The notes beneath the pieces were generated by a model. It saw nothing but the letters and a program-made list of their open reading frames with translations, had not been told where the DNA came from and made no database searches. A stretch of 64,000 nucleotides of DNA from an uncultured Candidatus Saccharibacteria bacterium (lineage in GTDB: Bacteria; Patescibacteriota; Saccharimonadia; Saccharimonadales; SZUA-47). The translations under genes and the position numbers were made by a program. Below are positions 3,433-22,022 of the stretch, piece by piece (the first letter of the stretch is position 1; every line of letters starts with the position of its first letter). Location of the stretch: the NCBI GenBank assembly GCA_964419675.1, contig CAYQPN010000001.1, positions 100,480 through 164,479 of the forward strand, written 5' to 3'.

Positions 3433-3507
3433 TGGGATGTCGCCAAGTGGTAAGGCACTGGTTTCTGGAACCAGCATTCGTAGGTTCGAATCCTACCATC
3501 CCAGCCA
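3433..3507 (+). tRNA. tRNA-Gln (anticodon CUG)
   Basis: It folds as a cloverleaf: acceptor TGGGATG/CATCCCA, D-arm GCCAAGTGGTAAGGC, anticodon stem CTGGT/ACCAG with loop TTCTGGA, T-arm GTAGGTTCGAATCCTAC, and discriminator G plus an encoded CCA. It closely resembles bacterial tRNA-Gln. Confidence 0.85.
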
Positions 3508-3512
3508 ACTAA

Positions 3513-3546
3513 AACCACCCCCGAAAATGGGGTGTTTTTAGTTGTT
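3513..3546. terminator. Rho-independent terminator hairpin after tRNA-Gln (possibly bidirectional)
   Basis: The sequence is aaaaCCACCCCcgaaaatGGGGTGttttt: a 6-7 bp GC stem, a 7-nt loop, a downstream T-run and an upstream A-run. Confidence 0.5.
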
Positions 3547-3654
3547 TGTGTCTGTAGGATTTGAACCGATAGGCGAAATATGTCAGTGACATATTGAGTT
3601 TTCCCTGCTTGGCTGAACGAGATGCGGTCCCGCTCTCGAGTGAGCAAATTTGGG

Positions 3655-3676
3655 CGAATCCTACCATCCCAGCCAA
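3655..3676 (+). repeat. 22-nt direct repeat identical to the tRNA-Gln 3' end (cgaatcctaccatcccagccaa = 3487..3508); attR-like
   Basis: Exact match seen in the sequence. It is preceded by a ~105-nt arm-like element (3548..3654) that is homologous to 11950..12052 and 16131..16225. Confidence 0.75.
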
Positions 3677-4114
3677 TTTTGAAATTTTTTGCAAAAGGTC
3701 GTTATTATTAACGTCTTTAATCTTTCACCGATGTTCCTAGTCTCCAAGACCCTGATTATAATGTATGTGTTTTGAATGACCGATTTGGATAAGTTTATTA
3801 ATGTGCTAAAGCTTGTTATAATTATATTTAAATATATGGGGTACAAAAGGCGAGAACTTTTTGACGTAATTCGAGGGTTGAGCCGGGGCGTTAATAAGCT
3901 CGTAACCAACTCCGCTATTGTAGTTCGAAATATTATCATAGTTACCAAAATCTACTTGATACCAATCATAGTAGTCGTACTTGTATGGTTACGCACCACT
4001 ACTGTTTATATTGATGAACACTACTGGAGTCCACAACGTAAAAGATTGATTTTGAAATTTAAACCCTTGCAGAGATGGGATGCATGGGCATACCGACCAC
4101 AGGCAAGAAAATCC

Positions 4115-7100
4115 ATGGAGTTAATGCTAGCAGTCCTATTTATCAGCTCGATATTTCAGGCAGCGCTCCAGGCAGCTCCCGATCTTAATGATGACTGGGA
4201 TTTGGCTAATGCGGTTGACTATACCTATGATTCAGGAATAGAGATGGTGTCTGGTGTTGCACGGCTTAAGACTCAAAATTATGAAAACGACGCCGATACA
4301 AGGGCGCTATACCACTTTGATGAATCCGGAGGTATCAACGCTTCTGATAGTTCGTCAAACAGCAATAATGCAACAATTTCAGGGGGCAGTTTTGTAGCAG
4401 GGAGCTTGAATAATGCAGTTTCGCTTGACGGCATTGACGACACAGTAACTGCACCTAACAGTGCAAGCCTGCAACTCGGTCAACAGCACACCATTGAGGC
4501 TTGGACTAAGTTTAATAATAATTTCGATAGCACCTCTCACGACCGAAGAAATGCAGTTGTAGATAAGGGAGATTACCAGCTTTACTATGACAATGAAACT
4601 GGTAAGTTAACATATGAAATTGCTAACTCTACGTCATCAAATTGGACACAAACAGCGGGTAGTAACATTGGTGGTAGTTGGGGGACGAACGGCAAGCGAA
4701 GCGTGACGTCCAGTATAGTGATGGGCTCTGATGTTTATGCTGGATTAGGAAATCAGCTTGCTGATGCTGAAGTATGGATGTGGAACGGCAGTGACTGGGA
4801 ACTTGTCGGCGGTGACGGGGTTAACGGTTCTTGGGACGATCAAACATTTGAAGATGTATATTCAATGACAACAGATGGCACTAATCTATATGCCGGACTA
4901 GGAACAACCGCAGGTGATGCCGAAGTATGGCGATGGGATGGAGCCACTTGGACAAAAATTGGGGGCGATGCGGTTAGCAGTAGTTGGCAAGTTAGTACCT
5001 TTGAAACAGTCGGTTCTCTTAACTACTTTGGTTCGAATCTGTACGCTGGTTTGGGCAGTAGCGCGAGCGACGCTGAAGTATGGCGCTGGAACGGCACAAC
5101 TTGGACAAAAATAGGCGGTGACAGCTTGAACAGTGGTTGGGTTGCTGGATATGAGATTGTCTCGGCTCTGGCTGACGACGGCACTAATTTATACGCCGGC
5201 CTAGGAACAACCGCCAACGACGCCGAAGTATGGATGTGGAATGGAACCGCTTGGTCGCAAATTGGCGGTGACAGTTTGAACAGTGGTTGGGCTGCTGGGT
5301 TTGAGGCTGTAAGAGCGATGCGATACATTGCAGGAATTTTATATGCAGGTCTGGGTGATACGGCAGGAGATGCAGATTTATGGTCATGGAACGGGGCTAC
5401 ATGGTCGCAAATTGGCGGTGACGGCCTAAACGGAAGCTGGAATACAAACTATGAAGGCATATATGCAATCGGTACTGACGGAACCGACATTTATGCAGGG
5501 CTGGGTACGGGGAATGGCGACGGAGAAGTGTGGCGACGTAGTGGAGGAAGTTGGTCGCAAATTGGTGGCGATGGCCTAAACGGAAGCTGGACCACAAACT
5601 TTGGGGACACGGTATATACGCTTCCTAATAATGGCACTACTGTTTATGCCGGAATTTACGACACGGCGGGAGGTGGCTACTTATACTCTTGGAACGGCAC
5701 AACTTGGACCACTCTCGGTGGACAATACATAAATAATAGTTGGGGTTATTACGGGCAAGGTTCTGTGGAAGTACTTCAAGTGTCTGGGGAGTATCTATAC
5801 GCCGGCCTTGGTTCAGCAAGTGGGTCAGCACAGATATGGCGTCTAAGCGGGAGTACCTGGAGTTTAGTTGGTGGTCAAGGAATAAACAATAGCTGGCCAG
5901 CGAATACATATGAGCAAGTTTCTAGTATGAGTAGCCACGAGGGTAACTTGTATGTCGGGCTGGGTACTACAGCCAACGACAGTGAAGTATGGATGTGGAA
6001 CGGCACCACGTGGTCGCAAATTGGTGGTGACAGCTTAAATAGCGGTTGGACTACCAATTTTGAAGAGGTAAACTCACTCGCTAGCTTTAATGGTGATTTG
6101 TACGCGGGCTTAGGTAATAGCAATAACGATGCTGAAGTATGGCGGTGGAACGGCGCAACCTGGACAAAAATAGGTGGCGACAGCCTGAACAGTGGTTGGA
6201 CTACCAACTATGACAGAGTAAGTTCATTGGCGGTTTATAAAGGTAATTTAATTGCTGGTCTCGGAGCAGGAGCCGGAGAGGCTGAACTGTGGCAGTGGAA
6301 CGGCGCAGCTTGGTCAAAAATAGGTGGCGATAGCCTGAACAGTAGCTGGGATAGTACTTTTGAGCAGATAGAAGCACTGATTCAATTTAACAATAAGCTG
6401 TATATAGGTCTTGGAAACACTGCGGGTGACGGCGAAGTGTGGGAACTTGATGATACAACGTGGACCAAGATTGGAGGCGACGACTTAAATAATAGTTGGG
6501 CAGACGGTACTTATGAAAGGGTACGCACCCTAGCTACTTACAACGGTGATTTATTTGCAGGCCTTGGTAGCGGAACTGGCGAAGGAGAAGTCTGGAGATA
6601 CTCGGCCGGAAGTTGGACTAAAGTGGGTGGTAATAGCGTCAATACTTCTTGGGGTAACACCATGGAAGAGGTTGAATCTTTTAGTACTTACCAAGGTAAG
6701 CTTTACGCTGGGACTGGCAACACCGCCAATGCGGATGCAACCGTGTGGTCGCTTGGTGATAATGGTTACCTGCAATCAACAACCAGTAGTTTCAACACAG
6801 ACTGGCGTCACGTGGCTGCTTCGTACAACGGCAGTACGATGAGAATTTATATTAACGGCACACTCGAAAATTCACTGTCAAAAACGTTTAGTGTAGCAAC
6901 TAGTAATCGTGACTTACTCATTAGTACAGGATATGGTGGTCGTGAATACGGTAAACCACAGGCAAGATTTCAGGGACTTATTGATGAGGTGCGTCTAAGC
7001 AGTGTTAGCCGGTCGTCGTTTACTACCAGCCCATATGCGAGTTCACCGCAGTCCCTAAGGCCACAAGACAGTGTGAGAAAAAATGGCGTATGGCACTGGG

Positions 7101-9940
7101 ACACATTTAGCCATAATGAAACCCCTAACGGCGGATCGGTTAACTATAGGCTATCGTCCGACGAAGGCACCACATGGCTATTCTGGGACGGCTTAGCATG
7201 GTCGCAATCAAATAGCCTTACCGAGGCAAATACAGTCGCTGTTATAACTGCTAACTTTGACGAGTTCCCTGTGACATTTGACGGAATGCTCTGGCAGGCA
7301 GTTCTTAGTGGCAATGGGTCACAGCAAGTTATTCTTGACGGTGTAAACGCTGATGCAACTTCTGACACCATCGACCCAACTTCCAACCCGTCGAACATAG
7401 TCGCCTACAAGGCAAACGGGGGTACTGTACTTGCTCAAGACGATTGGACAAATGGCGGGTCACCCTACTTTACCTGGGATGTCGGTGATGACGCCGAATC
7501 AGAAGTGAAGGGTTATTGTGCGTATCTAGGAACTGATGAGCTAGCGGATCCAGTGACAACCAAAGGGCTACTGGGTAATAGCCCAGCTCCAACAGGTGAT
7601 AACTGTCAGTTTATGGTGACTGGAACTTCACTTGACCTAGCAACTCCAGGACTCTTATCAACACCACTCTCAACAACAAACGACACCTACTATCTAAACT
7701 TGCGGACAATTGATAATGCCGGCAATGTCACCAACACCTCTTCTCAATTTTCATTTAGGTTTGATAATACGATGCCAACGAATCCCGGCTACATTACCGC
7801 ACCTTCGGGCTTTATAAACACAAAAGACGTCTCAATGTCATGGCCAACTATAGGCGGTAGTGCACCAAGTGACAGCAATTCAGGATTAGTCGGGCTTCAG
7901 TATCGAATCGGCGCGGGCGGTACATGGTACGGGGATGGTCATACGGGGCTTGGCGACATGGCTGATTTGCTGAACAATGACGGAGAATACAATACTCTAG
8001 AAACTCCCGACTATGCCTCACTCATTGAAGGAATTAACACAGTCTACTTTAGAACGTGGGATTTGGCTGGTAACGTATCTACAACATATGTAACAGCAAC
8101 TCTCAAAATTAACACCAGTGGTGCACCGAGTGTACCGAACAACCTAGTTGCAACACCGACGACAAACACTGCTAACTCCTTTGGATTTAATTGGGATGCT
8201 CCGACGACGTTTATTGGTGACGAGAATAACATTACTTACTGCTACACAATCAATACACTTCCTTCACCGTCATCTTGTGCGTATACAGGCCCCGGCTCAA
8301 CAGAGCTAACCGTAGGCGCATATGCAACACAACCCGGATTAAACACCATGTACATAGCTGCTCGAGATGAGTCTAGCAACATCAACTACGATAATTATGC
8401 TTCCACAGGATTTACAGCTGACACCCCGTCTCCGGGAGTGCCATTAAATACTGACCTTGTAGACGTATCAATAAAAAATACCAGCAACTGGAGGCTAGCG
8501 CTCACATGGGATGTGCCTACATACACCGGTGGTGGTATCAATAATTACCGAATCTTTAGGTCTACAGACAACATTACATTTAATCAAGTCGGAACGAGTT
8601 CAAGCACTACATACATTGACGCCGGTCTAAGCCAGCAAACCTATTACTACAATATTTCAGCTTGTGACAATACAAATAACTGTGGCGCATCTGGTACAAC
8701 GGTGAGTGGCTTTCCTACCGGTAAATTCACAAGCCCTGCCACGCTTATCGACGGACCAGCTACTAGCGACATTACAACTAAACGAGCAAAAGTCAGCTGG
8801 ACAACTGACCGAGCAAGCGATTCGAAAGTACAAATTGGTACACAAAGTGGCGAATATAGCCCATCCGAGGTTGGTAATTCAGATCAAACATCGGTTCATG
8901 AAATTTCTCTGGACAATTTGTCGCCAGGAACAACCTACTACTTAAAAGTAAAATGGACAGACGAGGACGGAAACACAGGCACTAGCTCAGAGCAGACATT
9001 CACGACCGCCCCAGCACCTTCAATTATAGAGCTAGAAGTAACCGGAGTCGGTCTTGGCAGTGCGGGACTTGCCTTTACAACTCGGGGTGCCACAAAGGCT
9101 ACTGTCTACTACGGTACTAGCGAATCGTTTGGCGGGCTAAAAACGGTGAATACTGCAACTGTAGAGTCGCGCTATCAGGTAGAATTAGACGATTTGACCG
9201 ACGGCACAAAATACTACTACATGGTAAGTACCTACGACCAAGAAGGCGCAGAATACAGAGGCAATGTCGGCTCGTTCTCCACGCCACCTCGACCAAGAAT
9301 AACTAATCTTAGGTTCCAACCTGTTGCAGGAGAGCCAACAAGTACCCAGCAGGTAACATGGGACACAAACGTTCCAAGTAGTAGTCAGGTTACCTACAAT
9401 ATTGTTAACGGAACCCCAATTGAAGTACAGGACTCTAGCCTAGTAACTTCTCATGAAATTGTCATACGTAATCTAAGTGATGACAGTGAATATGTTCTTA
9501 CGGCCCTAAGCCGTGATGCGTCAGGAAATTCTACAACTTCAGATAGGCAAGTTTTCCGAACAGCACTTGATACCAGACCTCCAAAAGCCACAGATGTTGT
9601 CGTTGAATCTTCTATTAGGGGTTCCGGTTCAGAGGCTCGTGGCCAAATAGTAGTCTCGTGGCGCACGGACGAACCATCGACAAGCCAAGTTGCGTATGCT
9701 GAAGGTTCAGACGCTGTAACCTTTAACAGCAAGACGGTTGAGGACACGATACTTACGACCGAGCACCTAGTCATTATTTCTGATTTGCCAACTTCTCGAG
9801 TCTTTAGTGTCCAGCCCCTTTCAAAAGACTCTGCAGGCAATGAAGGTCAAGGAGAAACTCAGACCGCCATTATTGGACGGGCATCAGACAGTGCTATTAC
9901 CGTCGTATTCAATACACTTAAAGCGATATTTGGATTATAA
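4115..9940 (+). CDS. Giant secreted repeat protein: about 20 tandem ~45-50-aa beta-propeller-like repeats, a LamG/concanavalin-like domain and multiple Fn3-like domains
   Basis: The ORF is open from 3776 (2054 aa). The likely start is the ATG at 4115 (MELMLAVLFISSIFQAALQAAP, signal-peptide-like). The upstream 113 codons are AT-rich and non-protein-like. The repeat consensus is …NLYAGLGTTANDAEVWRWNGTTWTKIGGDSLNSGW…. The LamG motif is DWRHVAASYNGSTMRIYINGTLENS. Fn3-like signatures include TTYYLKVKWTDEDGNTG and TKYYYMVSTYDQEG. Confidence 0.8.
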   Translation: MELMLAVLFISSIFQAALQAAPDLNDDWDLANAVDYTYDSGIEMVSGVARLKTQNYENDADTRALYHFDESGGINASDSSSNSNNATISGGSFVAGSLNNAVSLDGIDDTVTAPNSASLQLGQQHTIEAWTKFNNNFDSTSHDRRNAVVDKGDYQLYYDNETGKLTYEIANSTSSNWTQTAGSNIGGSWGTNGKRSVTSSIVMGSDVYAGLGNQLADAEVWMWNGSDWELVGGDGVNGSWDDQTFEDVYSMTTDGTNLYAGLGTTAGDAEVWRWDGATWTKIGGDAVSSSWQVSTFETVGSLNYFGSNLYAGLGSSASDAEVWRWNGTTWTKIGGDSLNSGWVAGYEIVSALADDGTNLYAGLGTTANDAEVWMWNGTAWSQIGGDSLNSGWAAGFEAVRAMRYIAGILYAGLGDTAGDADLWSWNGATWSQIGGDGLNGSWNTNYEGIYAIGTDGTDIYAGLGTGNGDGEVWRRSGGSWSQIGGDGLNGSWTTNFGDTVYTLPNNGTTVYAGIYDTAGGGYLYSWNGTTWTTLGGQYINNSWGYYGQGSVEVLQVSGEYLYAGLGSASGSAQIWRLSGSTWSLVGGQGINNSWPANTYEQVSSMSSHEGNLYVGLGTTANDSEVWMWNGTTWSQIGGDSLNSGWTTNFEEVNSLASFNGDLYAGLGNSNNDAEVWRWNGATWTKIGGDSLNSGWTTNYDRVSSLAVYKGNLIAGLGAGAGEAELWQWNGAAWSKIGGDSLNSSWDSTFEQIEALIQFNNKLYIGLGNTAGDGEVWELDDTTWTKIGGDDLNNSWADGTYERVRTLATYNGDLFAGLGSGTGEGEVWRYSAGSWTKVGGNSVNTSWGNTMEEVESFSTYQGKLYAGTGNTANADATVWSLGDNGYLQSTTSSFNTDWRHVAASYNGSTMRIYINGTLENSLSKTFSVATSNRDLLISTGYGGREYGKPQARFQGLIDEVRLSSVSRSSFTTSPYASSPQSLRPQDSVRKNGVWHWDTFSHNETPNGGSVNYRLSSDEGTTWLFWDGLAWSQSNSLTEANTVAVITANFDEFPVTFDGMLWQAVLSGNGSQQVILDGVNADATSDTIDPTSNPSNIVAYKANGGTVLAQDDWTNGGSPYFTWDVGDDAESEVKGYCAYLGTDELADPVTTKGLLGNSPAPTGDNCQFMVTGTSLDLATPGLLSTPLSTTNDTYYLNLRTIDNAGNVTNTSSQFSFRFDNTMPTNPGYITAPSGFINTKDVSMSWPTIGGSAPSDSNSGLVGLQYRIGAGGTWYGDGHTGLGDMADLLNNDGEYNTLETPDYASLIEGINTVYFRTWDLAGNVSTTYVTATLKINTSGAPSVPNNLVATPTTNTANSFGFNWDAPTTFIGDENNITYCYTINTLPSPSSCAYTGPGSTELTVGAYATQPGLNTMYIAARDESSNINYDNYASTGFTADTPSPGVPLNTDLVDVSIKNTSNWRLALTWDVPTYTGGGINNYRIFRSTDNITFNQVGTSSSTTYIDAGLSQQTYYYNISACDNTNNCGASGTTVSGFPTGKFTSPATLIDGPATSDITTKRAKVSWTTDRASDSKVQIGTQSGEYSPSEVGNSDQTSVHEISLDNLSPGTTYYLKVKWTDEDGNTGTSSEQTFTTAPAPSIIELEVTGVGLGSAGLAFTTRGATKATVYYGTSESFGGLKTVNTATVESRYQVELDDLTDGTKYYYMVSTYDQEGAEYRGNVGSFSTPPRPRITNLRFQPVAGEPTSTQQVTWDTNVPSSSQVTYNIVNGTPIEVQDSSLVTSHEIVIRNLSDDSEYVLTALSRDASGNSTTSDRQVFRTALDTRPPKATDVVVESSIRGSGSEARGQIVVSWRTDEPSTSQVAYAEGSDAVTFNSKTVEDTILTTEHLVIISDLPTSRVFSVQPLSKDSAGNEGQGETQTAIIGRASDSAITVVFNTLKAIFGL

Positions 9941-10708
9941 ATGAAAGTTGAAAACCTTTTTTCTGTCAATAATTTAACACTCGAATTCGAGGTTGGAGAA
10001 CAGCACGTTATAGCGGTTAACAACGCCACTGTAAGCATCCCGGATAAAAAAATAACTATCATCTACGGTGCGTCAGGAAGTGGAAAATCCAGTTTGTTAA
10101 ACGTTATCTCGGGCCTGCAACCACCATCTAGGGGGAAGCTACTTTACCGTGGTAACAATATCTATAATCAGTCCGCAAACGAACTAGCATTCTTTCGTGC
10201 ACACGAACTGGGCATTGTTTATCAGACAAACTACTGGGTGAAAAGCCTAACTGTGCTCGAAAATGTGGCACTGCCACTATACTTTCTTGGATACACAAAG
10301 GCAGACGCGCATAAACACGCCAAAGATGCTTTAAGCAGAGTAGGAATGTCAAAATATATTAGTAAACTGCCAGTATTGTTATCGGGTGGTGAACAGCAAC
10401 GTATTGCAATGGCCCGCGCCATAGCCAGTAATCCACCGGTTATCATTGCTGATGAGCCGACCGGAAACCTAGACAGCATAAACGGTGACAAGATTATTGA
10501 TTTATTACGTCAGCTTAACAGGGATGAGGGCAAGACAGTTATTTTGGTCACACATAATATGGAATATATTTCCATGGCTCACCATTTGCTGGAAATAGAG
10601 GACGGGCAAGTAACCGAAATTGATAAAGAAAATATTGCAAAGACGGTCAAGGTGATGCTCGGTGATGCGCAAAAACGAATCACGAAACATATGGAGGCCT
10701 CACGATGA
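9941..10708 (+). CDS. ABC transporter ATP-binding protein, MacB/LolD-like
   Basis: It has Walker A GASGSGKSS, the signature LSGGEQQRIAMARA and Walker B IIADEPTGNLD. Its ATG directly abuts the TAA of the giant gene. Confidence 0.9.
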   Translation: MKVENLFSVNNLTLEFEVGEQHVIAVNNATVSIPDKKITIIYGASGSGKSSLLNVISGLQPPSRGKLLYRGNNIYNQSANELAFFRAHELGIVYQTNYWVKSLTVLENVALPLYFLGYTKADAHKHAKDALSRVGMSKYISKLPVLLSGGEQQRIAMARAIASNPPVIIADEPTGNLDSINGDKIIDLLRQLNRDEGKTVILVTHNMEYISMAHHLLEIEDGQVTEIDKENIAKTVKVMLGDAQKRITKHMEASR

Positions 10709-11931
10709 AAAGGCGCAAGGTCACGGATAAAGCCACAGTTCAGACGGGTATTCTTGCATCAATTGCTCTTAGTAACCTTACTCATAAAAAGCTACGAACA
10801 GGCTTAACTGTTTTTGGTATAGCCATAGGTATTGGTGCAATTTACTTTCTACTTTCTTTCGGCATTGGCCTGCAAAGACTTGTAACAAACGAAGTTATTG
10901 GCAACCAATCTATAAAGACTATAGACGTTGTAAGTTCAAACTCAAATATCGTCAAACTTGACGACACCGCAACCCAACGCGTTACACAAATACCTAACGT
11001 AATTGAGACGGGCAAGGCATACTATTTCCCTGGTAGCTTCAAAATTAGTGGTAGCGAGTCTGACAGCATTGTCTATGGGGTTGATACTGGCTATCAAAAT
11101 TTAACACACCTGAATTTAATTGAAGGCAAACTGCTTAAAGACACAGAAGAACAAAGCGGGGTAGTAATCAACAAAGCAGCGCTAGAAGCTATAGGCTTAG
11201 CGGGCAATCCAAGCGAAGTCATAAACAAGACGGTCAGTGTAATCGTGCCTCTTTCAAAAATTGATTCAGCTCTAGGTACATTTACTGAAGAATTTGTAAT
11301 TGTCGGAATCATAGATTCTGGAAGCGGTTCAGAAATTTTCATATCAAGTGCCATGTTTAAGGACAAAGGCGTGCCCTACCTTACTCAACTTAAGGTTGGC
11401 ACAAGGGAAGTTACAGACATACAAGTTATCCGTTCGCAAATTGAAAGCTTTGGATTTGAAACATCCTCGCCGGTAGATACCTTGGAGGAAATTAATAACG
11501 TATTCCGCTTTCTCAACTACATTTTGGTTGGGTTTGGAGGAATCGGAATGATTGTTGCTGTGCTTGGTATGTTTAACACGCTTACCATTTCACTTCTAGA
11601 GCGAACCAAAGAGATAGGACTTATGGTGGCGCTTGGTGCGCGGTCAATCGACATGAAGCGTCTCTTTATTTTTGAAGCCCTATTCTTGTCACTATTTGGT
11701 TCGGTGCTGGGAATCACTGGCGCTTTCATAATCGGCAGAGTCGTAAATACTGTTATGAACATTCTGGCATCCGGTAGGGGTGTGCAAGACAGTTTTGAAC
11801 TGTTTGCTAATCCGCCACTTCTTATCATAGGAATGCTAGCTTTTATGGTTGCTGTCGGGTTAGCGGTTGTATATTTGCCCGCAAGGCGCGCGCAAAGAAT
11901 TAACCCAATTGATGCACTTAGACGAGAGTAG
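10705..11931 (+). CDS. ABC transporter permease, FtsX/MacB-type (N-terminal TM, large extracytoplasmic domain, C-terminal 3-TM FtsX domain)
   Basis: 408 aa with an ATGA start/stop overlap with the ATPase gene. The C-terminal FtsX-like segment ends …YLPARRAQRINPIDALRRE. Confidence 0.85.
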   Translation: MKRRKVTDKATVQTGILASIALSNLTHKKLRTGLTVFGIAIGIGAIYFLLSFGIGLQRLVTNEVIGNQSIKTIDVVSSNSNIVKLDDTATQRVTQIPNVIETGKAYYFPGSFKISGSESDSIVYGVDTGYQNLTHLNLIEGKLLKDTEEQSGVVINKAALEAIGLAGNPSEVINKTVSVIVPLSKIDSALGTFTEEFVIVGIIDSGSGSEIFISSAMFKDKGVPYLTQLKVGTREVTDIQVIRSQIESFGFETSSPVDTLEEINNVFRFLNYILVGFGGIGMIVAVLGMFNTLTISLLERTKEIGLMVALGARSIDMKRLFIFEALFLSLFGSVLGITGAFIIGRVVNTVMNILASGRGVQDSFELFANPPLLIIGMLAFMVAVGLAVVYLPARRAQRINPIDALRRE

Positions 11932-12052
11932 TCGGTTCACAGTACAGTTTAGTGTTAGGTTAGAACCAGCGTTTTGTTATAAAATAGGCTCGTCTATCAG
12001 TCACAGTCCCTGCAAAGCGGGCGACTGGATTGAGATGGTAATTCATCCCACA

Positions 12053-12070
12053 ATCCCAGCCAATTAAAAC
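12053..12070 (+). repeat. Third partial copy of the tRNA-Gln 3' end plus downstream flank (atcccagccaaTtaaaac vs atcccagccaaCtaaaac at 3498..3515)
   Basis: 17 of 18 nt are identical and the match extends past the tRNA CCA end. The upstream ~100 nt (11950..12052) are homologous to the arm element 3548..3654. Confidence 0.55.
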
Positions 12071-12157
12071 AATCTTTACGAGTTACCCCATCTATGATAA
12101 TTTAGGTTTTTTATAGTATATCCATTCATACAATCAAGTCCTATAATTATAAATAAC

Positions 12158-12367
12158 ATGTATGTATTAGTTGATGAAACTGGTGAACTAGAGTCTACTA
12201 CTAAAGATGGGTTAGGAATTTGTACCCTAGTAATGATCAATGATAAAAGCTGGAATAAATTTAACAAATTTTTATTAAAAAACGAAATAGACCCTAAATT
12301 TCAAAAATCCAGTAACCTAAAGTTTGATAAAAGAAAAATAATTACAAATTATATCTCTAGTAATTGA
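12158..12367 (+). CDS. Hypothetical protein (69 aa) in a very AT-rich block; N-terminal VLVDETGE resembles the DUF3800-type N-terminal motif
   Basis: ORF only. It is in the same frame as 12512..13108 and separated from it by stops, so it may be a decayed single gene. Confidence 0.3.
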   Translation: MYVLVDETGELESTTKDGLGICTLVMINDKSWNKFNKFLLKNEIDPKFQKSSNLKFDKRKIITNYISSN

Positions 12368-12511
12368 GGTATATACTATTATGCTATTTGCCACGACCCT
12401 GTTTACTATGATTTAGAATCTATAAAGAATCACAAAATAGAACAAGCTAGCAGAGTTGATAAGTTTATAAAATCAGACACAGACACTAAAAAAGAAATTA
12501 GAGCGAAAAAC

Positions 12512-13108
12512 TTGCTAATATTTCGAAACCAATATCGCAACTTAACGAATCCAGACTTTATAAAACTCACAATGATTACTGAAGCTTTTATGAAATGGTT
12601 TGAATATTTTCAGTTTGACATAGACAATTTTCCAAACAATGATGATAACTGGCATTTTTTTCATAGAATTGATACGCAAAACAAGCCTGAGAAATTCAAG
12701 CGATTATTGACTGGTTACATTAAAATGACCATTCATCCAGCTGCAAATAATGGGATATCAATAAAGTATAACAGCGACATTTCTTTGAGACACCCGTTTC
12801 ACAAAAATAATGCAGGAAAAGATGGTTATGCTGACCCAAATATATTTCTTGAAGATATAAAAATTACTACTGAAACAGTAACTCCCCAGTTATTTTTACC
12901 AGATTTCTTTGGCAACACTTTTTTTCGAGCTTTCAAAACAAATGAAGAAAAATATTTAAGTTTAGCAAAAAACTTAGGTCAAAGAAGAATGAAAGCAATG
13001 AAGTTTAGGCCAAATAATAAGTATATTCTAAAAGTAATTAGTTTTGATGATAAAAAAGTGCGTGTAAATAAAAAACTTGAAGATTTTTTAATATCTACGA
13101 AGCAATGA
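12512..13108 (+). CDS. Hypothetical protein (198 aa), AT-rich accessory block
   Basis: Long ORF in an AT-rich region (~25-30% GC by eye). No recognisable motifs. Confidence 0.4.
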   Translation: MLIFRNQYRNLTNPDFIKLTMITEAFMKWFEYFQFDIDNFPNNDDNWHFFHRIDTQNKPEKFKRLLTGYIKMTIHPAANNGISIKYNSDISLRHPFHKNNAGKDGYADPNIFLEDIKITTETVTPQLFLPDFFGNTFFRAFKTNEEKYLSLAKNLGQRRMKAMKFRPNNKYILKVISFDDKKVRVNKKLEDFLISTKQ

Positions 13109-13249
13109 TCGACCGGCGCAATATAGCACGCGTCTAAGGCCGCGTGTGATCACGCTGTTTAATCAGTTGTTGCCGAAAATGTGTTAGTGCTAAATTATAT
13201 ATCATAAGTTACGGTATATAATGTAACCTATAAATAGGAGTAAACCGTT

Positions 13250-14125
13250 TTGCAGTCAAATCAATGTGTATCTTGTATTGCAAACTCAATTACTGATTCT
13301 TGGTACATTCTGCTCAATAACTTATATGAAATTGCTCAAAACTATGATAATGCCAATCAAGAAAATACTTCGACTGTAGATAATTACGCGACCAGGATTA
13401 CTATAGGAATTATAAATTCATCTTTCATGAACCTTTGTACAGGTGTTCACGAAAACGGAAAAAATAATTTTGAGTCGTTTATGTGCATTTCACGAAATGT
13501 TCTTGAAAGGCTTTCGAATATAAACTATCTCAACTCTAAACCGGAAAATAGAATTAAATACTCAAAAATATTAAAAAATAATGAACGTGATATTTGTGAA
13601 CTTTACTTGCCTGCGGACCCGATTAAAAAATCAACAGAATGGAAATCTCAAAAGTGGACTAATATAAGCCAGGAAAAACGTATAAATGCTTTATCTAGTA
13701 AACAACATATTCTTCTATATGGATATTATTCGAGGGTACTACACACATTAAATATTGATATTTTACTTAAAGATGAAATGAATATGACTTTTATAAAGAT
13801 CTACACACTTCTAGAATTAGTTATATCATATAACACTGTACTTTCTGTTTATCACGAAAATTCCGATGAGTATAATGCCATAAAAACTAAACACAAAGAA
13901 TTTAACAATTTACTAAATTTTACATGGATGAACAAGAATTTATCTCTCAACTCAATTATTTTGTTGACAACTTTTTACGATGATAAAAGAGACAAAAGAA
14001 ACTCTAAAGTTCTCAAATTATACTTAAAAGCTTTAAAAGGGTCTCAAAAAAGTATGACATTTCCAGAATTTGTATATGTTAAACATGATTTATCTTTTAA
14101 ACATAATAATGAGACAATACACTAA
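13250..14125 (+). CDS. Hypothetical protein (291 aa), AT-rich accessory block
   Basis: Long ORF with a TTG start, preceded by AGGAG 11 nt upstream. No recognisable family. Confidence 0.45.
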   Translation: MQSNQCVSCIANSITDSWYILLNNLYEIAQNYDNANQENTSTVDNYATRITIGIINSSFMNLCTGVHENGKNNFESFMCISRNVLERLSNINYLNSKPENRIKYSKILKNNERDICELYLPADPIKKSTEWKSQKWTNISQEKRINALSSKQHILLYGYYSRVLHTLNIDILLKDEMNMTFIKIYTLLELVISYNTVLSVYHENSDEYNAIKTKHKEFNNLLNFTWMNKNLSLNSIILLTTFYDDKRDKRNSKVLKLYLKALKGSQKSMTFPEFVYVKHDLSFKHNNETIH

Positions 14126-14196
14126 TATTATAATGTTAGAAAATATATTACCAAAGAAATGCCTTCAAAAACAGATAAAGTGTAGTAGATTTTATA

Positions 14197-14424
14197 TTAG
14201 TAGTATTCTTGTATAACAGCAATAAAAGCTAATATTAGCAACAGAAATAAAACCAGGTACATAAAGTACGCTTGCCCTTTTTCTCCCTTTTCATAATATT
14301 CATTCGCTTGTATTATTGCGCCAAAATACACGATGAGTAGCACTACTGCTACAAACCAACCTTTGAAATCTATCCCTGCCGGGCCAAAACAGTTTCCATA
14401 ACAAGAAGCAAATATTGCTAACAT
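14197..14424 (-). CDS. Small membrane protein (2 predicted TM helices)
   Basis: 75 aa, strongly hydrophobic. Confidence 0.3.
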   Translation of the reverse strand: MLAIFASCYGNCFGPAGIDFKGWFVAVVLLIVYFGAIIQANEYYEKGEKGQAYFMYLVLFLLLILAFIAVIQEYY

Positions 14425-14558
14425 ACTTATATCGTATCATTCAATTGACCCAATCAAGCTCAATTCTCTACATAAATTATAGGTTCGAAGCTCATCCATT
14501 AGAGGTAGTCAATACAATATGAAAACCCCTTTGGAAGAATTTTTGCTAAACTTAAACT

Positions 14559-15089
14559 ATGAAAGAACAGTTTGAGGAAATATTTTTGGTTGGGGGTAAG
14601 GCTAATTCTTTGGGGAGGTCTGCGGAAGTTCTTGAATTGGTTGTATCAAACAAGCGCTACCTTCCAGAACTATACGAATGCATATCGCATGAAGATGCGT
14701 GGGTACGGATGCGCGCAATCGATACACTGGAAAAAGTCTGCCGAGTCCACCCAGACTGGCTAGAGCCGTACACCGACCACATGCTAAAAGTGCTATCCAA
14801 AAGCAACCAACCATCAATTCAATGGCACCTAGCACAAATTTTTAAACAAATTAAACTCACAGATGCGCAAAGGGAATCAGCGCTACGATGGCTTTCTAAA
14901 CTACTTAAAGACAAAAATGTTGACTGGATTGTATCCGCAAATGCGATGGACACCCTAGCTCAATTTACAAATGAAGGCCTGTTCCCAAAAGACCAACTGG
15001 TTAAATTATTGAAAATTCAACTTAACCACAAATCAAAAGCCGTAGCTAAGCGCGCCACCAAAATCTTAAGCCAAATCGAACCCAACTAA
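14559..15089 (+). CDS. HEAT-repeat protein, DNA alkylation repair (AlkC/AlkD)-like
   Basis: 176 aa, all-helical repeat pattern (…EDAWVRMRAIDTLEKV…VDWIVSANAMDTLAQF…). Confidence 0.45.
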   Translation: MKEQFEEIFLVGGKANSLGRSAEVLELVVSNKRYLPELYECISHEDAWVRMRAIDTLEKVCRVHPDWLEPYTDHMLKVLSKSNQPSIQWHLAQIFKQIKLTDAQRESALRWLSKLLKDKNVDWIVSANAMDTLAQFTNEGLFPKDQLVKLLKIQLNHKSKAVAKRATKILSQIEPN

Positions 15090-15106
15090 ACCCCCAAACT
15101 TGAAAG

Positions 15107-15685
15107 ATGGAGCATGAGCATAGTAAGGACTTATCCTACAGCGACTATTTCTTTGCTATAATTCAAAACATGAAGGTCACAATGCTACCCGGAATTAGTC
15201 TAGATGGTTTTATTGCTCTACCTAACGGCGACAGTTATAGTTGGGTTAATCAAGCTGATGAAGCACGCTACAGCGCGTCAGTTGAACGAGCCGGGTGTAT
15301 TCTGGTTGGGAATACAACTTTCCAACAATACCGAGAAGATTTTAATAGTCGTAAGAACGTTATCAACTTTGTTTGCACAAATGGCGATAAGCCTGAAGAT
15401 ACAGATACAGTTAAATATATGAGCGGAACGCCCAAAGAAATATTGGACAAAATAAAAGCCTATAACTTCGATGAACTTATTGTGTGCGGTGGTGGCGAAA
15501 TAAATGGTATGTTTGCGAGTGCTGGTTTAGTAGATGAAATTGTTGTTGGTATTCAGCCTGTAGTTCTCGGCGAGGGGATACCACTATTTGGATCATACAA
15601 GCCACGTCTAAATTTAGAGCTAGTTTCAGTAAACCAAGATGTTGAAGGTGTAGTTCAGAATCACTATAGAGTCATACATAGCTAA
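15107..15685 (+). CDS. Dihydrofolate reductase-like / RibD C-terminal domain family reductase
   Basis: 192 aa: ISLDGFIALPNGD…LIVCGGGEINGMFASAGLVDEIVVGIQPVVLGEGIPLFG. Confidence 0.65.
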   Translation: MEHEHSKDLSYSDYFFAIIQNMKVTMLPGISLDGFIALPNGDSYSWVNQADEARYSASVERAGCILVGNTTFQQYREDFNSRKNVINFVCTNGDKPEDTDTVKYMSGTPKEILDKIKAYNFDELIVCGGGEINGMFASAGLVDEIVVGIQPVVLGEGIPLFGSYKPRLNLELVSVNQDVEGVVQNHYRVIHS

Positions 15686-15851
15686 ATTATTCATTAGAAA
15701 TATCTGAAGACCATCCATTAATACAAAAACAAAAAATTATACACAGTGTGCGAAAGAATTGCCGAACATTTTTTAATAGCAAGTCATCTGTTAGTTTAGT
15801 TCGTTCTTGCGCTAGGAGCGTATAATATAGATGTAAGTAGGAGATACCATC

Positions 15852-16022
15852 ATGGCTATAAATGGACCAAAAGGGCACGGGCGCATTGGACGGATTAAAA
15901 ATCGTACCCAGACCTTTAACGATAAAACTAAAAGATACATTGAACGCGACGTAGTGACCGGAAGATTTATTAATGTAAAATCCGACAGAGCACCCTTTAA
16001 AGACGTCATTGTAGAAAAGTAG
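15852..16022 (+). CDS. Small basic hypothetical protein (56 aa), not in the ORF track (<60 aa)
   Basis: AGGAGA lies 9 nt upstream of the ATG. Translation: MAINGPKGHGRIGRIKNRTQTFNDKTKRYIERDVVTGRFINVKSDRAPFKDVIVEK. The two antisense track ORFs here look spurious. Confidence 0.4.
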   Translation: MAINGPKGHGRIGRIKNRTQTFNDKTKRYIERDVVTGRFINVKSDRAPFKDVIVEK

Positions 16023-16284
16023 TGCTTCTGAATATCAACTAGTTTGAGTTAAAACCAAAGTCCTAATCTCGTTCACTTGTTACAGCCATCTTCTGTCGCA
16101 GGTCAGCTACGGAGGATTTTTGTGTTGTAGGGCTCGAACCGATAAGTGAAATATGCCTCAAGACATATTGAGTTTTCAATGCTTGGCTTAAGCGAGCTTG
16201 CTACCTAGTAATTTTAGAGGTTATGCTTAGTTAGAGTACAATGTTAGTGGTGACAGTTAAATATTTAATCTTAAGAGGTATGAT

Positions 16285-16965
16285 ATGAAGTTGATAAAAG
16301 AACAAGGTTTTGCGTCAGTAATTATTATAGGAGCCATCGTAACAACGTTTGTAGCTGGTACGGGTACAGTAGTTGCATCAAACAGTAGTAAGCCGGGAGA
16401 TTCGTTATATAGTATTGATCGTGGTGCTGAGAGAGTACAGTTAGCGTTTGCATTGACCGAAGGGAGCAAAAAAGACTTACACGCCACACTTGCAAGTGAG
16501 AGGCTCGTAGAACTGGAAGCTCTACTAGCTGAGGACGAGCTAGATGAATCTGGGATTTCTGATGCTAGAAGCAATTTTGAAGATCACAGAGCTAAGCTTG
16601 CTGATCTTTCAGATAATGACGGAAATATTGACGAACATGAGCTAGAACTTGAACTCGAAATAGAAGATAAGAAATCTAGCATTGATAAAATAGCTGAAAC
16701 TGAGCAGAAATCCCTAGAGACGCAACGAGAAGACCTAAAAAAGCAATATGAACAAGCATTGAAAGATGGCGACACCGCAAAGGCAGCAACTTTAATGGCG
16801 CAGATAGAAAGTTTCGAGGGCCAGCTAAAAGCAGTCGAAGTCCAGCGTGAATTACAAAAACAAGAGACAGAAGAACAAAGCGAATCTGAGAAAAAAGAAG
16901 CAGAACAAGAGAAAAAAGCCGCTGAAGAACAAGCTGAAGCCGAGAAGAAAGAAGAAGAACGGTAA
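16285..16965 (+). CDS. Membrane-anchored, E/K-rich coiled-coil protein
   Basis: It has an N-terminal TM segment (FASVIIIGAIVTTFVAGTGTVVAS) and a low-complexity, acidic/basic helical C-terminus. Confidence 0.5.
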   Translation: MKLIKEQGFASVIIIGAIVTTFVAGTGTVVASNSSKPGDSLYSIDRGAERVQLAFALTEGSKKDLHATLASERLVELEALLAEDELDESGISDARSNFEDHRAKLADLSDNDGNIDEHELELELEIEDKKSSIDKIAETEQKSLETQREDLKKQYEQALKDGDTAKAATLMAQIESFEGQLKAVEVQRELQKQETEEQSESEKKEAEQEKKAAEEQAEAEKKEEER

Positions 16966-17047
16966 AACTTTATAATTAATTAATTGAACCCAGGCCAGAA
17001 TTTAATCTAGTAAATTAAAGAGAGCTTTGAAATGCTAAACTATACTA

Positions 17048-18652: not shown

Positions 18653-18655
18653 AAA

Positions 18656-19333
18656 TTATTCTGCAACAGTAAAGAAACCCGTAACTTCTGGCTCAAAGTG
18701 GTCATGATATTGGAATGTTCCGGTTTCAGAGAGAGTAATTGTTTTGTTTTTCCCTTTTTTGATAAACAAATCGGTTTCTCCTGCATATGCACCGTGTTTA
18801 GGGTGAGTCCCAAATGTAATTTCTCGAGCATCATCTTTGTTTATAAATGTTAGTGTGTCACACTTCTCCGCAAAGACGTAGGTAGGGTCAACCCGGTCGT
18901 CCTTTATTGTTATCTGGTGGTTCGGGTGCTGGCCTTTGCATGCGCCTGTCTCTTCGCCACTGATTTGATAAATACCCTCTTTATCCACTAGCTTTTTAGC
19001 TTGTTCTACAGGTGACATGTTGTAATGGAGGTTATTTATTATAAGTATTGAGCCACCAACAACCATCACGATCATTCCTGCTGTTGCAACAAAAAAGTAC
19101 AGATTCCATTTCGGTTTAGGACCTCGACCTAGATGCAAAAAGTAAAATATCTGTACTAATAATTGAGCAAAGGCCAGCCCCAAGATACTAACCAACAGTA
19201 AATTACTTGATAGAGTCTGATTGACTACAATGTGGTAGGCAACATATGTCAATATTAGTGATAAAACAAAACCAACTGTGTAGTTAATTACGTTACCGTG
19301 TTCGGCGTTAGTTCTGCTAGTGTTATGACTCAT
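18656..19333 (-). CDS. cyoD: Quinol oxidase subunit IV (CyoD-like) fused to a ~125-aa C-terminal extracytoplasmic beta-sandwich (cupredoxin-like?) domain
   Basis: The track ORF runs to 19375. The likely start is the internal ATG (MSHNTS…), which overlaps the cyoC stop (ATGA). The N-terminal ~110 aa has 3 TM helices typical of CyoD. The C-terminal segment (…HPKHGAYAG…YHDHFEPEVTGFF…) has no obvious CyoD counterpart. Confidence 0.6.
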   Translation of the reverse strand: MSHNTSRTNAEHGNVINYTVGFVLSLILTYVAYHIVVNQTLSSNLLLVSILGLAFAQLLVQIFYFLHLGRGPKPKWNLYFFVATAGMIVMVVGGSILIINNLHYNMSPVEQAKKLVDKEGIYQISGEETGACKGQHPNHQITIKDDRVDPTYVFAEKCDTLTFINKDDAREITFGTHPKHGAYAGETDLFIKKGKNKTITLSETGTFQYHDHFEPEVTGFFTVAE

Positions 19334-22019: not shown

Positions 22020-22022
22020 ATC

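What the first reader, a model, noticed from the sequence alone, without database searches (positions are those of the whole stretch)
3433..16225. Candidate decayed tandem island array downstream of tRNA-Gln, bounded by copies of the tRNA 3' end
The intact tRNA-Gln 3' end (cgaatcctaccatcccagccaa, 3487..3508) recurs exactly at 3655..3676. It recurs again at 12053..12070 as atcccagccaaTtaaaac, 17 of 18 identical, and this copy includes the flank beyond the CCA end. Each partial copy is preceded by a related ~100-nt arm-like sequence (3548..3654, 11950..12052), and a third arm copy without a core sits at 16131..16225. This is the classic footprint of successive site-specific integrations into a tRNA 3' end (attL/attR duplication). 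The segments carry: (i) nothing (3508..3676), (ii) a giant surface protein plus its ABC transporter (3677..12052), and (iii) a very AT-rich block of unknown ORFs plus AlkD-like and RibD_C-like genes. No integrase or recombinase gene is present, so the elements appear domesticated or decayed. The giant-protein/ABC module therefore looks like horizontally acquired cargo.
Basis: partly seen in the sequence, partly recalled or inferred. Interest (0 to 1): 0.7.

Follow-up and report, generated by a model that had tools for sequence, protein, structure and literature searches.

The report
Pseudo-tRNA repeats flanking variable gene blocks
Downstream of a glutamine tRNA gene in a Saccharibacteria genome, partial copies of the tRNA carrying folded inserts separate blocks of variable genes; they look more like conserved junction modules than plain scars of three decayed islands.

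Summary
The repeats are real. tRNA-Gln(CTG) lies at 3433-3507. Its last 22 nt recur exactly at 3655-3676, and 23 of 26 nt (including 9 nt of 3' flank) recur at 12045-12070. Arm1 and arm3 share about 75 nt. Arm2 is a different type, and arm3 has no core.

The genome is a Saccharibacteria relative. A collinear relative (L006) carries the same two unit types, in the same order, directly behind its tRNA-Gln with no genes between them. In relatives these units are clearly tRNA-Gln-derived pseudo-tRNAs. Their T loop is split by a 50-90-nt insert whose hairpins covary: 17 of 31 pairs show double changes, and 0 of 500 shuffles reach that. There is no Rfam match.

The giant-protein/ABC block is a conserved Saccharibacteria module (permease 58-89% identical in hundreds of contigs) that sits elsewhere in two relatives, so it is not foreign cargo. 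Only 12.07-14.5 kb (27-29% GC) looks foreign.

No recombinase domain occurs in any ORF of the 64 kb. One relative has a large serine recombinase gene abutting tRNA-Gln.

The variable zone probably extends to ddl at 24.2 kb.

Verdict: observation mostly confirmed, interpretation partly supported. The units are most likely miniaturised ends of tRNA-Gln-specific elements (0.45), or else a new structured RNA (0.3).

The parts
3433..3507 (+). intact tRNA-Gln (anticodon CTG), the source of the repeated 3' end
   Evidence: ARAGORN; Rfam tRNA 65.9 bits
3516..3534 (+). intrinsic terminator of tRNA-Gln; its extended stem starts at about 3508 (aactaaaac...)
   Evidence: sequence
3546..3676 (+). unit 1 (arm1 plus core2). 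It contains an anticodon-arm-like hairpin (3552-3572, loop ATTTGAA), hairpin P1 (3577-3595), a further hairpin region, and then the exact 22-nt tRNA 3' end (3655-3676).
   Evidence: P1 and the borders match the X-module model R1 (3572-3661, 17.3 bits, E 0.0025). The 27-nt end TGGGCGAATCCTACCATCCCAGCCAAT is 96% identical to unit 1 of L006.
3679..3708 (+). promoter-like site (TTGAAA-18-TATTAT) directly after core2, facing the giant gene
   Evidence: consensus match only
3776..9940 (+). giant surface protein (Laminin_G_3, fn3 and Ig-like domains, 50-aa tandem repeats); likely true start about 3836
   Evidence: The C-terminal 1209 aa are 86-89% identical to the L028-L036 orthologues.
9941..10708 (+). 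ABC transporter ATPase
   Evidence: Pfam ABC_tran; 83% identical in L028
10705..11931 (+). MacB/FtsX-type ABC permease, a lineage-conserved gene
   Evidence: Pfam. More than 2000 homologues; the best 120 listed are 58-100% identical, about 400 aa long, and those that carry a name are Saccharibacteria.
11950..12070 (+). unit 2 (arm2 plus core3). It is a partial tRNA-Gln copy (GAACCAGC...TAGGCTCG) with a Y-type insert (11995-12044: TATCAGTC, bulged hairpin, GATTGAGATGGTAATTC) and a 23/26 copy of the tRNA 3' end plus flank (12045-12070). It starts about 20 nt after the permease stop codon.
   Evidence: It is homologous to unit 2 of L006, with a 21-nt identical stretch and compensatory hairpin changes.
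12071..14500 (+). AT-rich block (27-31% GC) with ORFs 12512-13108 and 13250-14125 of unknown function; the best candidate for foreign DNA
   Evidence: No Pfam, PHROG or PADLOC family. The 291-aa protein has only 13 distant homologues among 1.84 billion representatives.
14559..15685 (+). HEAT-repeat protein (14559-15089) and RibD_C-domain protein (15107-15685)
15852..16022 (+). 56-aa protein (PADLOC candidate PDC-S38, phrog_12550). Its 80% identical homologue lies directly after tRNA-Gln in L005.
16118..16195 (+). unit 3 (arm3). It is a partial copy of arm1 (anticodon-arm-like hairpin, a P1-like hairpin with one mismatch and a larger loop, and about 30 nt more) without any tRNA 3'-end core.
16285..23943 (.). 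further variable block: DUF5667 protein, PGA_cap protein, a cytochrome oxidase operon (18656-22790, minus strand) and a UbiA-family prenyltransferase. None of these is found in the fetched stretches of L005 or L006.
24206..25213 (-). D-Ala-D-Ala ligase gene, the probable conserved right flank of the variable zone. RmuC at 27946-29007 is a firmer anchor.
   Evidence: ddl 41-54% identical and RmuC 81% identical to the L005/L006 genes

Best explanation
Each 'arm plus core' is a unit of its own. It is a partial, tRNA-Gln-derived pseudo-tRNA, running from an anticodon-arm-like hairpin or the T arm through to the acceptor 3' strand. Its T loop is split by a 50-90-nt insert that folds into conserved hairpins on the tRNA-sense strand.

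I read the units as the miniaturised ends of tRNA-Gln-specific integrative elements. These would cross over in the T loop, leave 18-22-nt direct repeats, and depend on a recombinase supplied in trans. The units survive as junction modules of a plasticity zone that runs from tRNA-Gln to about ddl (24.2 kb), not to 16.2 kb.

Gene blocks lie between the units. Block (ii), the giant protein plus its MacB-type ABC transporter, is a conserved Saccharibacteria module that was relocated here, not imported cargo. Only 12.07-14.5 kb looks foreign.

Shown:
- the repeats;
- their homology to units in relatives;
- covariation of the inserts;
- collinear flanks with a variable interval;
- conservation of the ABC module.

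Inferred:
- that a recombinase created the partial copies;
- that the blocks entered or rearranged through them.
For: - The cores start inside the T loop: 22 nt for unit 1 and 18 nt (26 with the flank) for unit 2. The boundaries are the same in the window and in L006.
- Each core in L006 is followed by its own terminator, as expected if an element restores the tRNA end.
- Core3 keeps 9 nt of the terminator flank.
- L002 has a large serine recombinase C-terminus (Zn_ribbon_recom, 28.4 bits against a cutoff of 25.3) converging on the tRNA-Gln terminator. This matches dsiB at ssrA in Dehalococcoides, where tandem islands are bounded by 20-bp repeats, the crossover is in mid T loop, a conserved motif lies upstream of each repeat, and some islands lack integration genes (PMC3146451).
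- The number of units varies between relatives: none in 18.8 kb of L011, one marginal unit in L009/L010, a remnant in L005, two in L006.
- The flanks are collinear (LPG synthase, glutaredoxin, HTH, LssY_C, tRNA-Gln ... ddl ... RmuC), but the interval from tRNA-Gln to ddl is 0.77, 6.4 or 20.7 kb.
- Synteny with L028 and L037 ends at the permease stop codon, where unit 2 begins.
- The L005 pseudo-tRNA is a chimera of two tRNA-Gln types.
- Contigs of four relatives end inside or within 720 nt of tRNA-Gln.
Against: - No recombinase domain was found in any ORF of the 64 kb.
- No phage or element carrying arm plus core was found. Four viral-contig scans and two metagenome scans gave nothing.
- The window with cargo and L006 without cargo both have three cores, so integration at a core is not visible.
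- Strong compensatory change in the inserts points to selection on a folded strand, which plain att arms do not need. For the X modules: 92.7% of cells paired, 17 pairs with double changes against 6.2 +/- 1.8, 0 of 500 shuffles. The Y module has z about -5 on the sense strand.
- In L002 the same insert type also sits in a D loop and nests inside itself, and in L002 and L005 the interrupted copy lies upstream of the intact tRNA. A simple attR model does not predict either.
- The terminator after tRNA-Gln is conserved in four relatives with different downstream content.
Confidence: 0.45

Rival explanations
1. The units are structured non-coding RNAs, or intron-like inserts in tRNA-Gln paralogues, and have nothing to do with integrative elements. 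A tRNA-Gln scaffold carries folded modules (X after T54, Y after G57). The modules are the selected part, and they may be mobile at the RNA or single-strand level, because they nest into each other.
For: - X-module covariation: 17 of 31 pairs with double changes, 0 of 500 shuffles, slid controls at most 4.
- An invariant G-U pair and lower folding energy on the sense strand in all seven modules.
- Conserved junction and loop sequences (GCAAGGAAA, AACTTGTT) that could form a pseudoknot.
- Nested and D-loop copies in L002.
- The tRNA-like scaffold decays while the modules stay intact.
- The Y module is conserved between the window and L006, with about five compensatory pairs.
- No Rfam family matches.
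Against: - The units are absent or degenerate in several relatives.
- The window's arm1 keeps only hairpin P1 of the X module (17.3 bits), and arm3 has lost its core.
- There is no room for a promoter between the tRNA terminator and arm1.
- Only 5 X and 2 Y sequences are in hand.
- The model found the module only next to tRNA-Gln in about 435 kb of Saccharibacteria sequence. That argues against a freely mobile element.
Confidence: 0.3
2. One reading: three successive islands each brought their present cargo into tRNA-Gln and then lost their integrases, and the arms are the decayed P arms.
For: - Direct repeats of the tRNA 3' end.
- Compositional shifts: giant gene GC3 0.41 and ABC ATPase 0.43 against a median of 0.34; AT-rich block GC3 0.245.
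- The precedent of tandem ssrA islands, some without integration modules.
Against: - The giant/ABC module is conserved across Saccharibacteria and occurs without tRNA-Gln or arms in L028-L036 and L037.
- The same arms occur in L006 without cargo, and the arm2-type insert covaries between the two genomes.
- Segment (i) holds only a terminator and an arm.
- Arm3 has no core.
- No integrase remnant was found in any ORF.
Confidence: 0.15
3. Local tandem duplications of the 3' part of tRNA-Gln with its terminator, followed by neutral decay and filler insertions. There is no function and no recombinase.
For: - Downstream partial copies keep 3' ends and upstream copies keep 5' ends, as partial tandem duplicates would.
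- Core3 includes the flank beyond the tRNA.
- Each core in L006 has a terminator.
Against: - Neutral sequence would not keep hairpins through double compensatory changes, or a 21-nt identical stretch, between genomes whose proteins are 68-81% identical.
- Units 2 and 3 are 8.5 and 12.7 kb away from the tRNA.
Confidence: 0.1

Closest known systems
Tandem ssrA-specific genomic islands of Dehalococcoides (McMurdie et al. 2011, PMC3146451)
   Same: - A series of variable gene blocks lies downstream of a small stable-RNA gene.
- The blocks are bounded by roughly 20-nt direct repeats of that gene's 3' end.
[quoted passage not shown]
- Conserved sequence lies just upstream of each repeat.
- Some blocks lack integration genes (accretion or cis-mobilisable remnants).
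- The relative L002 has a serine recombinase gene converging on the RNA gene, as dsiB does.
   Different: - The target is tRNA-Gln, not tmRNA.
- There is no recombinase in this window.
- The sequence upstream of each repeat is a 50-100-nt folded, tRNA-derived module rather than a 15-bp motif.
- The same modules occur without cargo in a relative.
- One block is a lineage-conserved gene module.
tRNA-gene-integrated islands and prophages with tyrosine (P4-type) integrases, and cis-mobilisable elements (CIMEs) left after deletion
   Same: - Partial tRNA copies start in the anticodon loop or T loop and run to the 3' end, in direct orientation.
- Elements can shrink to their two att ends.
   Different: - No tyrosine integrase is present.
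- The partial copies are interrupted by structured inserts.
- In relatives, interrupted full-length copies also lie upstream of the intact tRNA.
Introns in tRNA genes: group I introns of Patescibacteria (PMC13011429) and non-canonical T-loop and D-loop introns of archaea
   Same: - Folded inserts sit in loops of tRNA-like genes of a Patescibacteria lineage.
- D-loop and T-loop positions, and nesting, recall archaeal intron spread (the archaeal comparison is from my own knowledge).
   Different: - There is no Rfam group I match.
- The inserts are 50-95 nt, far below group I size.
- The position is the T loop, not the anticodon loop.
- The host copies have degenerate acceptor stems, and an intact intron-less tRNA-Gln lies beside them.
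Integron cassette arrays and attC clusters without an integrase (CALINs)
   Same: - Gene blocks are each followed by a site conserved in folded structure rather than in sequence, plus a short conserved core.
- No recombinase lies nearby.
   Different: - There are no R/L box inverted repeats and no GTTRRRY core.
- The core is the tRNA-Gln 3' end.
- The blocks are multi-gene and up to 8 kb.

Membership tests
tRNA-integrated genomic island (integrase-mediated) | direct repeats of the tRNA 3' part bounding the inserted DNA | tested here: met
   22/22 at 3655-3676 and 23/26 at 12045-12070; none expected in shuffles
tRNA-integrated genomic island (integrase-mediated) | integrase or recombinase gene inside the island, usually next to one att site | tested here: not met
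   No recombinase domain in any of the 51 ORFs of at least 120 aa in the 64 kb. Small ORFs and pseudogene fragments were not exhaustively tested.
tRNA-integrated genomic island (integrase-mediated) | empty site in related genomes (tRNA followed directly by the far flank, no repeat) | tested here: inconclusive
   L006 lacks all the cargo (0.77 kb from tRNA-Gln to ddl) but keeps both arm-plus-core units. L011 has no unit but different flanks. ddl is only 41-54% identical.
tRNA-integrated genomic island (integrase-mediated) | cargo of foreign origin (atypical composition, patchy distribution) | tested here: inconclusive
   Met for 12.07-14.5 kb (GC 0.27-0.29; 13 distant homologues). Not met for the giant/ABC module (conserved, 58-89% identity).
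Dehalococcoides-type tandem islands with a large serine recombinase | roughly 20-nt repeat starting in mid T loop | tested here: met
   The cores start at C56 (unit 1) and at about position 59 (unit 2) of the T loop.
Dehalococcoides-type tandem islands with a large serine recombinase | serine recombinase gene on the reverse strand abutting attL | tested here: not met
   Absent in the window. Present in the relative L002 only (Zn_ribbon_recom). The contig ends inside the gene, so the catalytic domain was not seen.
Group I intron in a tRNA gene | match to the group I catalytic core; anticodon-loop position; 200 nt or more | tested here: not met
   No Rfam match at E up to 10 in the window or up to 1 in L002, L005 and L006. 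The inserts are 50-95 nt and sit in the T loop.
Functional tRNA gene (second tRNA-Gln copy) | complete cloverleaf with a paired acceptor stem | tested here: not met
   ARAGORN and Rfam call only 3433-3507. The units lack a 5' acceptor strand and a D arm.
Any described RNA family (Rfam 15) | covariance-model match | tested here: not met
   Only tRNA and a SAM riboswitch reach threshold in the window. The E-value scans of 3380-3800 and of L002, L005 and L006 gave nothing credible for arm1 or for the X- and Y-type units of the relatives. The window's arm2 and arm3 were covered by the gathering-threshold scan only.
Integron attC site | R''/L''-L'/R' inverted repeats with a GTTRRRY core site | tested here: not met
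   By inspection of the three units. Only arm2 has a chance GTTAGGT, and the shared core is the tRNA end.
   No further copies in the window. In 38 loci of relatives, the motifs and model R1 hit only beside tRNA-Gln.

The most novel reading that the evidence does not exclude
The arms belong to an undescribed class of folded nucleic-acid modules built on a tRNA-Gln scaffold. These are about 85-nt X modules (three hairpins plus a possible pseudoknot) and about 50-nt Y modules, lodged in T loops (and in one case a D loop), able to nest into one another, and acting on the tRNA-sense strand. They would be either a new small mobile intron-like or ribozyme-like RNA of Saccharibacteria, or folded single-strand recombination sites that organise a tRNA-anchored, integron-like cassette array.
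Probability: 0.3. Interest if true: 0.8.

Novelty: new variant of a known kind. Interest (0 to 1): 0.55.

Why it matters
Saccharibacteria and other Patescibacteria have tiny genomes, and little is known about how they gain and shuffle genes. This locus suggests that tRNA-Gln anchors a plasticity zone. Surface-protein, oxidase and orphan genes sit there between conserved pseudo-tRNA modules.

If the modules are recombination sites, they point to a gene-capture system that can be tested with the serine recombinase seen in a relative. If they are RNAs, they are a new structured family with unusual tRNA-loop insertions.

For annotation, the result warns against calling the giant-adhesin/ABC module horizontally acquired merely because it is bracketed by tRNA-end repeats.

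Tried and rejected
1. Exact-pattern scans for the arm2 end and the arm1 end in metagenome contigs and viral contigs found nothing. The same was true of the X-module pattern and the L002 recombinase in viral contigs. The metagenome collection evidently lacks even the L006 contig, so these negatives are weak.

2. The 56-aa gene as an empty-site marker. It follows tRNA-Gln in L005, but in 11 other relatives it is not near any tRNA. Dropped.

3. Split-tRNA or second-isoacceptor idea. The arm1 hairpin loop ATTTGAA reads as a UUG anticodon loop, but the stem has a mismatch, arm3 and L009 do not keep it, and there is no 5' half in the window. Rejected.

4. Arms as a tRNA gene on the minus strand, or as an inverted T arm. 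This is explained better as an anticodon-arm-like hairpin. ARAGORN finds nothing.

5. Group I intron, known small ribozymes and riboswitches: no Rfam match.

6. Integron attC and IS200/IS605 miniature elements. There is no core site, no similar end hairpins, and the conserved P2 loop is unexplained. These remain analogies only.

7. Transposon ends around the AT-rich block: no convincing direct or inverted repeats.

8. Model R1 on the window. Only hairpin P1 of arm1 matches, so the window's arm1 is a divergent relative of the X module, not a member.

9. The solved-structure search for the L002 fragment returned nothing.
Full report
**What is in the window.**
ARAGORN finds one tRNA in 64 kb, tRNA-Gln(CTG) at 3433-3507 on the + strand (Rfam tRNA 65.9 bits). 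An intrinsic terminator follows at 3516-3534.

The last 22 nt of the tRNA plus one flanking A (CGAATCCTACCATCCCAGCCAA, 3487-3508) recur exactly at 3655-3676. No other site in the window matches with up to 3 mismatches, and none of 100 dinucleotide shuffles gives a match. A 26-mer running from the T stem to 9 nt past the tRNA end recurs at 12045-12070 with 3 mismatches, again with nothing in shuffles.

The sequence before the first copy (arm1) and a stretch at 16118-16195 (arm3) are homologous over about 75 nt. Arm3 has no tRNA-derived core; its alignment to the tRNA scores below the shuffle mean. Arm2 (11950-12044) shares only the core with arm1.

The observation therefore holds, with two corrections. 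There are two unit types rather than three related arms, and arm3 is a truncated copy of arm1.

**Gene content and composition.**
Pfam confirms:
- a 2054-aa surface protein (3776-9940);
- an ABC ATPase (9941-10708) and a MacB/FtsX permease (10705-11931);
- two ORFs without any family (12512-13108, 13250-14125);
- a HEAT-repeat protein (not demonstrably AlkD-like), a RibD_C protein and a 56-aa ORF;
- then DUF5667, PGA_cap, a cytochrome oxidase operon, UbiA and ddl.

None of the 51 ORFs of at least 120 aa in the window has an integrase, recombinase or transposase domain.

Median GC3 of the window's genes is 0.337 (sd 0.044). The giant gene (0.412) and the ABC ATPase (0.426) are about 2 sd high, and the permease (0.381) about 1 sd high. 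The two orphan ORFs are far lower (GC 0.27-0.29, GC3 0.245). The 291-aa orphan has only 13 distant homologues (24-30% identity) among 1.84 billion representatives. The 56-aa ORF matches PADLOC candidate PDC-S38 and phrog_12550.

**Whose genome.**
The LssY_C protein next to the tRNA finds only Candidatus Saccharibacteria/Saccharimonadales MAGs (57-66% identity). Its best database relatives are 64-71% identical.

tRNA-Gln lies next to LssY_C in L001, L002, L003, L005 and L009/L010, and one gene further away in L006. Several of these contigs end inside or within 720 nt of tRNA-Gln. That is what repeats or strain variation at this spot would cause.

**The arms in relatives.**
L006 (JGI contig, 211 kb) has, directly after its tRNA-Gln and terminator, a unit ending GGGCGAATCCTGCCATCCCAGCCAA with its own terminator. 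A second unit follows, ending GATTGAGATGGTAATTCATCCTGCCATCCCAGCCAG.

These correspond to the window's arm1 and arm2, in the same order and with the same core boundaries, but no gene lies between them. The cores carry L006's own T-stem variant (CCTGC; the window has CCTAC).

The arm2-type inserts of the two genomes fold alike:
- a stem TCAGTC/GATTGA encloses a bulged hairpin, followed by the hairpin GATGG-TAAT-TCATC;
- about five pairs changed on both sides;
- z is about -5 on the sense strand and weaker on the antisense strand.

L009/L010 have one short, degenerate unit of marginal significance. L005 has a remnant 12 nt after the tRNA. L011 has none in 18.8 kb.

**What the arms are made of.**
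In L005 and L002, a second tRNA-Gln-like gene lies upstream of the intact tRNA-Gln. It has an intact 5' acceptor strand, D arm and CTG anticodon arm. Its T loop is split after T54 by an 85-170-nt insert, and its 3' acceptor strand is degenerate (alignments).

L002 also has an insert of the same kind in the D loop, and one insert is nested inside another. L006's arm1 is GCATTCGCAGGT, then the same insert, then CGAATCC... to the tRNA end.

Five such X modules align to a three-hairpin fold:
- 31 pairs, 92.7% of cells paired;
- 17 pairs changed on both sides, against 6.2 +/- 1.8 in shuffles (0 of 500 reach the observed value);
- at most 4 such pairs when the partners are slid;
- one G-U pair is invariant, and all modules are more stable on the tRNA-sense strand.

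A covariance model of the module (R1) hits only beside tRNA-Gln in about 435 kb of Saccharibacteria sequence. In the window it matches only hairpin P1 and the borders of arm1 (3572-3661, 17.3 bits, E 0.0025), and arm3 more weakly. Rfam has no family for any of this.

The window's arm2 aligns to its own tRNA as GAACCAGC...TAGGCTCG, then the insert, then ATCCCACAATCCCAGCCAATTAAAAC.

The arms are thus partial tRNA-Gln copies with structured T-loop inserts: type X after position 54 and type Y after position 57. The inserts are better conserved than the tRNA-like scaffold.

**Is the cargo an island?**
The permease has more than 2000 homologues. The best 120 listed are 58-100% identical and about 400 aa long, and those that carry a name are all Saccharibacteria.

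The three-gene unit (giant protein, ATPase, permease) is present in two other lineages:
- In L028-L036 the giant protein is 86-89% identical, the ATPase 83% and the permease 82%. The unit is followed by a terminator and by NUDIX and thymidylate kinase genes.
- In L037 the permease is 76% identical, and the unit lies between a Na/H antiporter and DUF2202.

Neither place has a tRNA or an arm. Synteny with both relatives stops at the permease stop codon, about 20 nt before arm2. The module is a lineage gene set whose neighbourhood changes, not imported cargo.

The flanks of the locus are collinear with L006: LPG synthase, glutaredoxin, HTH and LssY_C on one side; ddl (antisense) and RmuC (81% identical) on the other.
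- Distance from tRNA-Gln to ddl: 0.77 kb in L006, 6.4 kb in L005, 20.7 kb here.
- Distance from tRNA-Gln to RmuC: 6.1 kb in L006, 24.4 kb here.
- Caveat: ddl is only 41-54% identical, so RmuC is the firmer anchor.

**Evidence for recombinases at this tRNA.**
In L002 the ORF that converges on the tRNA-Gln terminator is the C-terminal part of a large serine recombinase (Zn_ribbon_recom, 28.4 bits against a cutoff of 25.3). The contig ends inside the gene.

This is the layout of the Dehalococcoides ssrA islands (PMC3146451):
- tandem islands downstream of ssrA bounded by 20-bp repeats of its 3' end;
- a conserved motif upstream of each repeat;
- the serine recombinase gene dsiB abutting attL on the reverse strand;
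- some islands without integration genes, explained as cis-mobilisable remnants.

The L005 pseudo-tRNA is a chimera. Its first 23 nt are of L005's own tRNA type, while its anticodon arm and variable loop are of the L006/window type. That points to recombination between different tRNA-Gln sequences at this locus.

**Weighing the explanations.**
The element-remnant reading explains:
- the T-loop boundaries;
- the terminator after each core in L006;
- the retained terminator flank at core3;
- the patchy presence of units among relatives;
- the variable zone and the recombinase in L002.

It does not explain:
- the compensatory evolution of the inserts;
- their nesting and D-loop copy;
- the interrupted copies upstream of the intact gene;
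- why cargo did not add cores (three in both the window and L006).

No active element with arm plus core was found. The collections I could scan were poor for this clade, and the metagenome scan missed even L006.

The RNA reading explains the covariation and strand bias. It does not explain the patchy distribution, the decay of the window's own arm1 and arm3, or the lack of a promoter.

My weights:
- 0.45 - miniaturised ends of tRNA-Gln-specific integrative elements, kept as junction modules;
- 0.30 - a structured RNA or intron-like module unrelated to integration;
- 0.10 - neutral tandem duplication.

**Verdict.**

The unexpected part is the conserved, covarying, tRNA-derived modules with no Rfam family. 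They deserve a clade-wide survey and an expression test.

Noticed in passing
L002 about 850-1245 (-), L005 9735-9915 (-), L006 8165-8325 (-): tRNA-Gln-like genes in relatives carry an about 85-nt three-hairpin 'X module' in the T loop, once also in the D loop and once nested inside itself. Covariation is strong and there is no Rfam match. The conserved GCAAGG junction and ACTTG loop could form a pseudoknot.
   Followed up: partly
L006 8533-8560 (-) and the leader at 8570-8680; L008 50-140 (-); L001 260-345 (-): L006 has a 28-nt 5' fragment of tRNA-Gln about 95 nt upstream of the intact gene. Upstream of tRNA-Gln in L006, L008 and L001 (with the sequence motif also seen in L005 and L002), a conserved leader carries a hairpin whose loop, GAAACTTGTTTTC, resembles the P2 loop of the X module.
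   Followed up: no
L005 9735-9915 (-): The interrupted tRNA-Gln copy is chimeric. Its 5' 23 nt match L005's own tRNA-Gln, while the anticodon arm and variable loop match the L006/window type (22 of 23).
   Followed up: partly
window 18656-23943: A cytochrome oxidase operon (COX2-like, COX1, COX3 and a subunit IV/cupredoxin fusion) plus a UbiA-family prenyltransferase sits inside the variable zone of a Saccharibacteria genome. No counterpart was found in the fetched stretches of L005 or L006.
   Followed up: no
window 15852-16022: A 56-aa ORF matches the PADLOC defence candidate PDC-S38 and phrog_12550. It is highly conserved (70-88% identity) across Saccharibacteria but sits in varying neighbourhoods.
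   Followed up: partly
window 61050-61577: A perfect 264-nt tandem duplication lies inside the 642-aa PKD/Ig-like surface protein gene (60337-62265, minus strand), next to a sortase gene.
   Followed up: no
window 146-187 and 48540-48581: Two copies, 48 kb apart, of a 42-nt element containing a perfect 34-nt palindrome (CACATATTATACGCTATAGCGTATAATATGTGTA).
   Followed up: no
window 38408-38514: A SAM riboswitch (50.2 bits) lies upstream of the S-adenosylmethionine synthetase gene (38570-39676).
   Followed up: no
window 4763-6653: The giant gene contains about 11 tandem 150-153-nt (50-aa) repeats. Contigs of relatives break inside this region.
   Followed up: no
L001, L003, L008, L011 contig ends: Four independent assemblies end inside or within 200 nt of tRNA-Gln. 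This suggests repeats or strain-level variation at this locus in natural populations.
   Followed up: no
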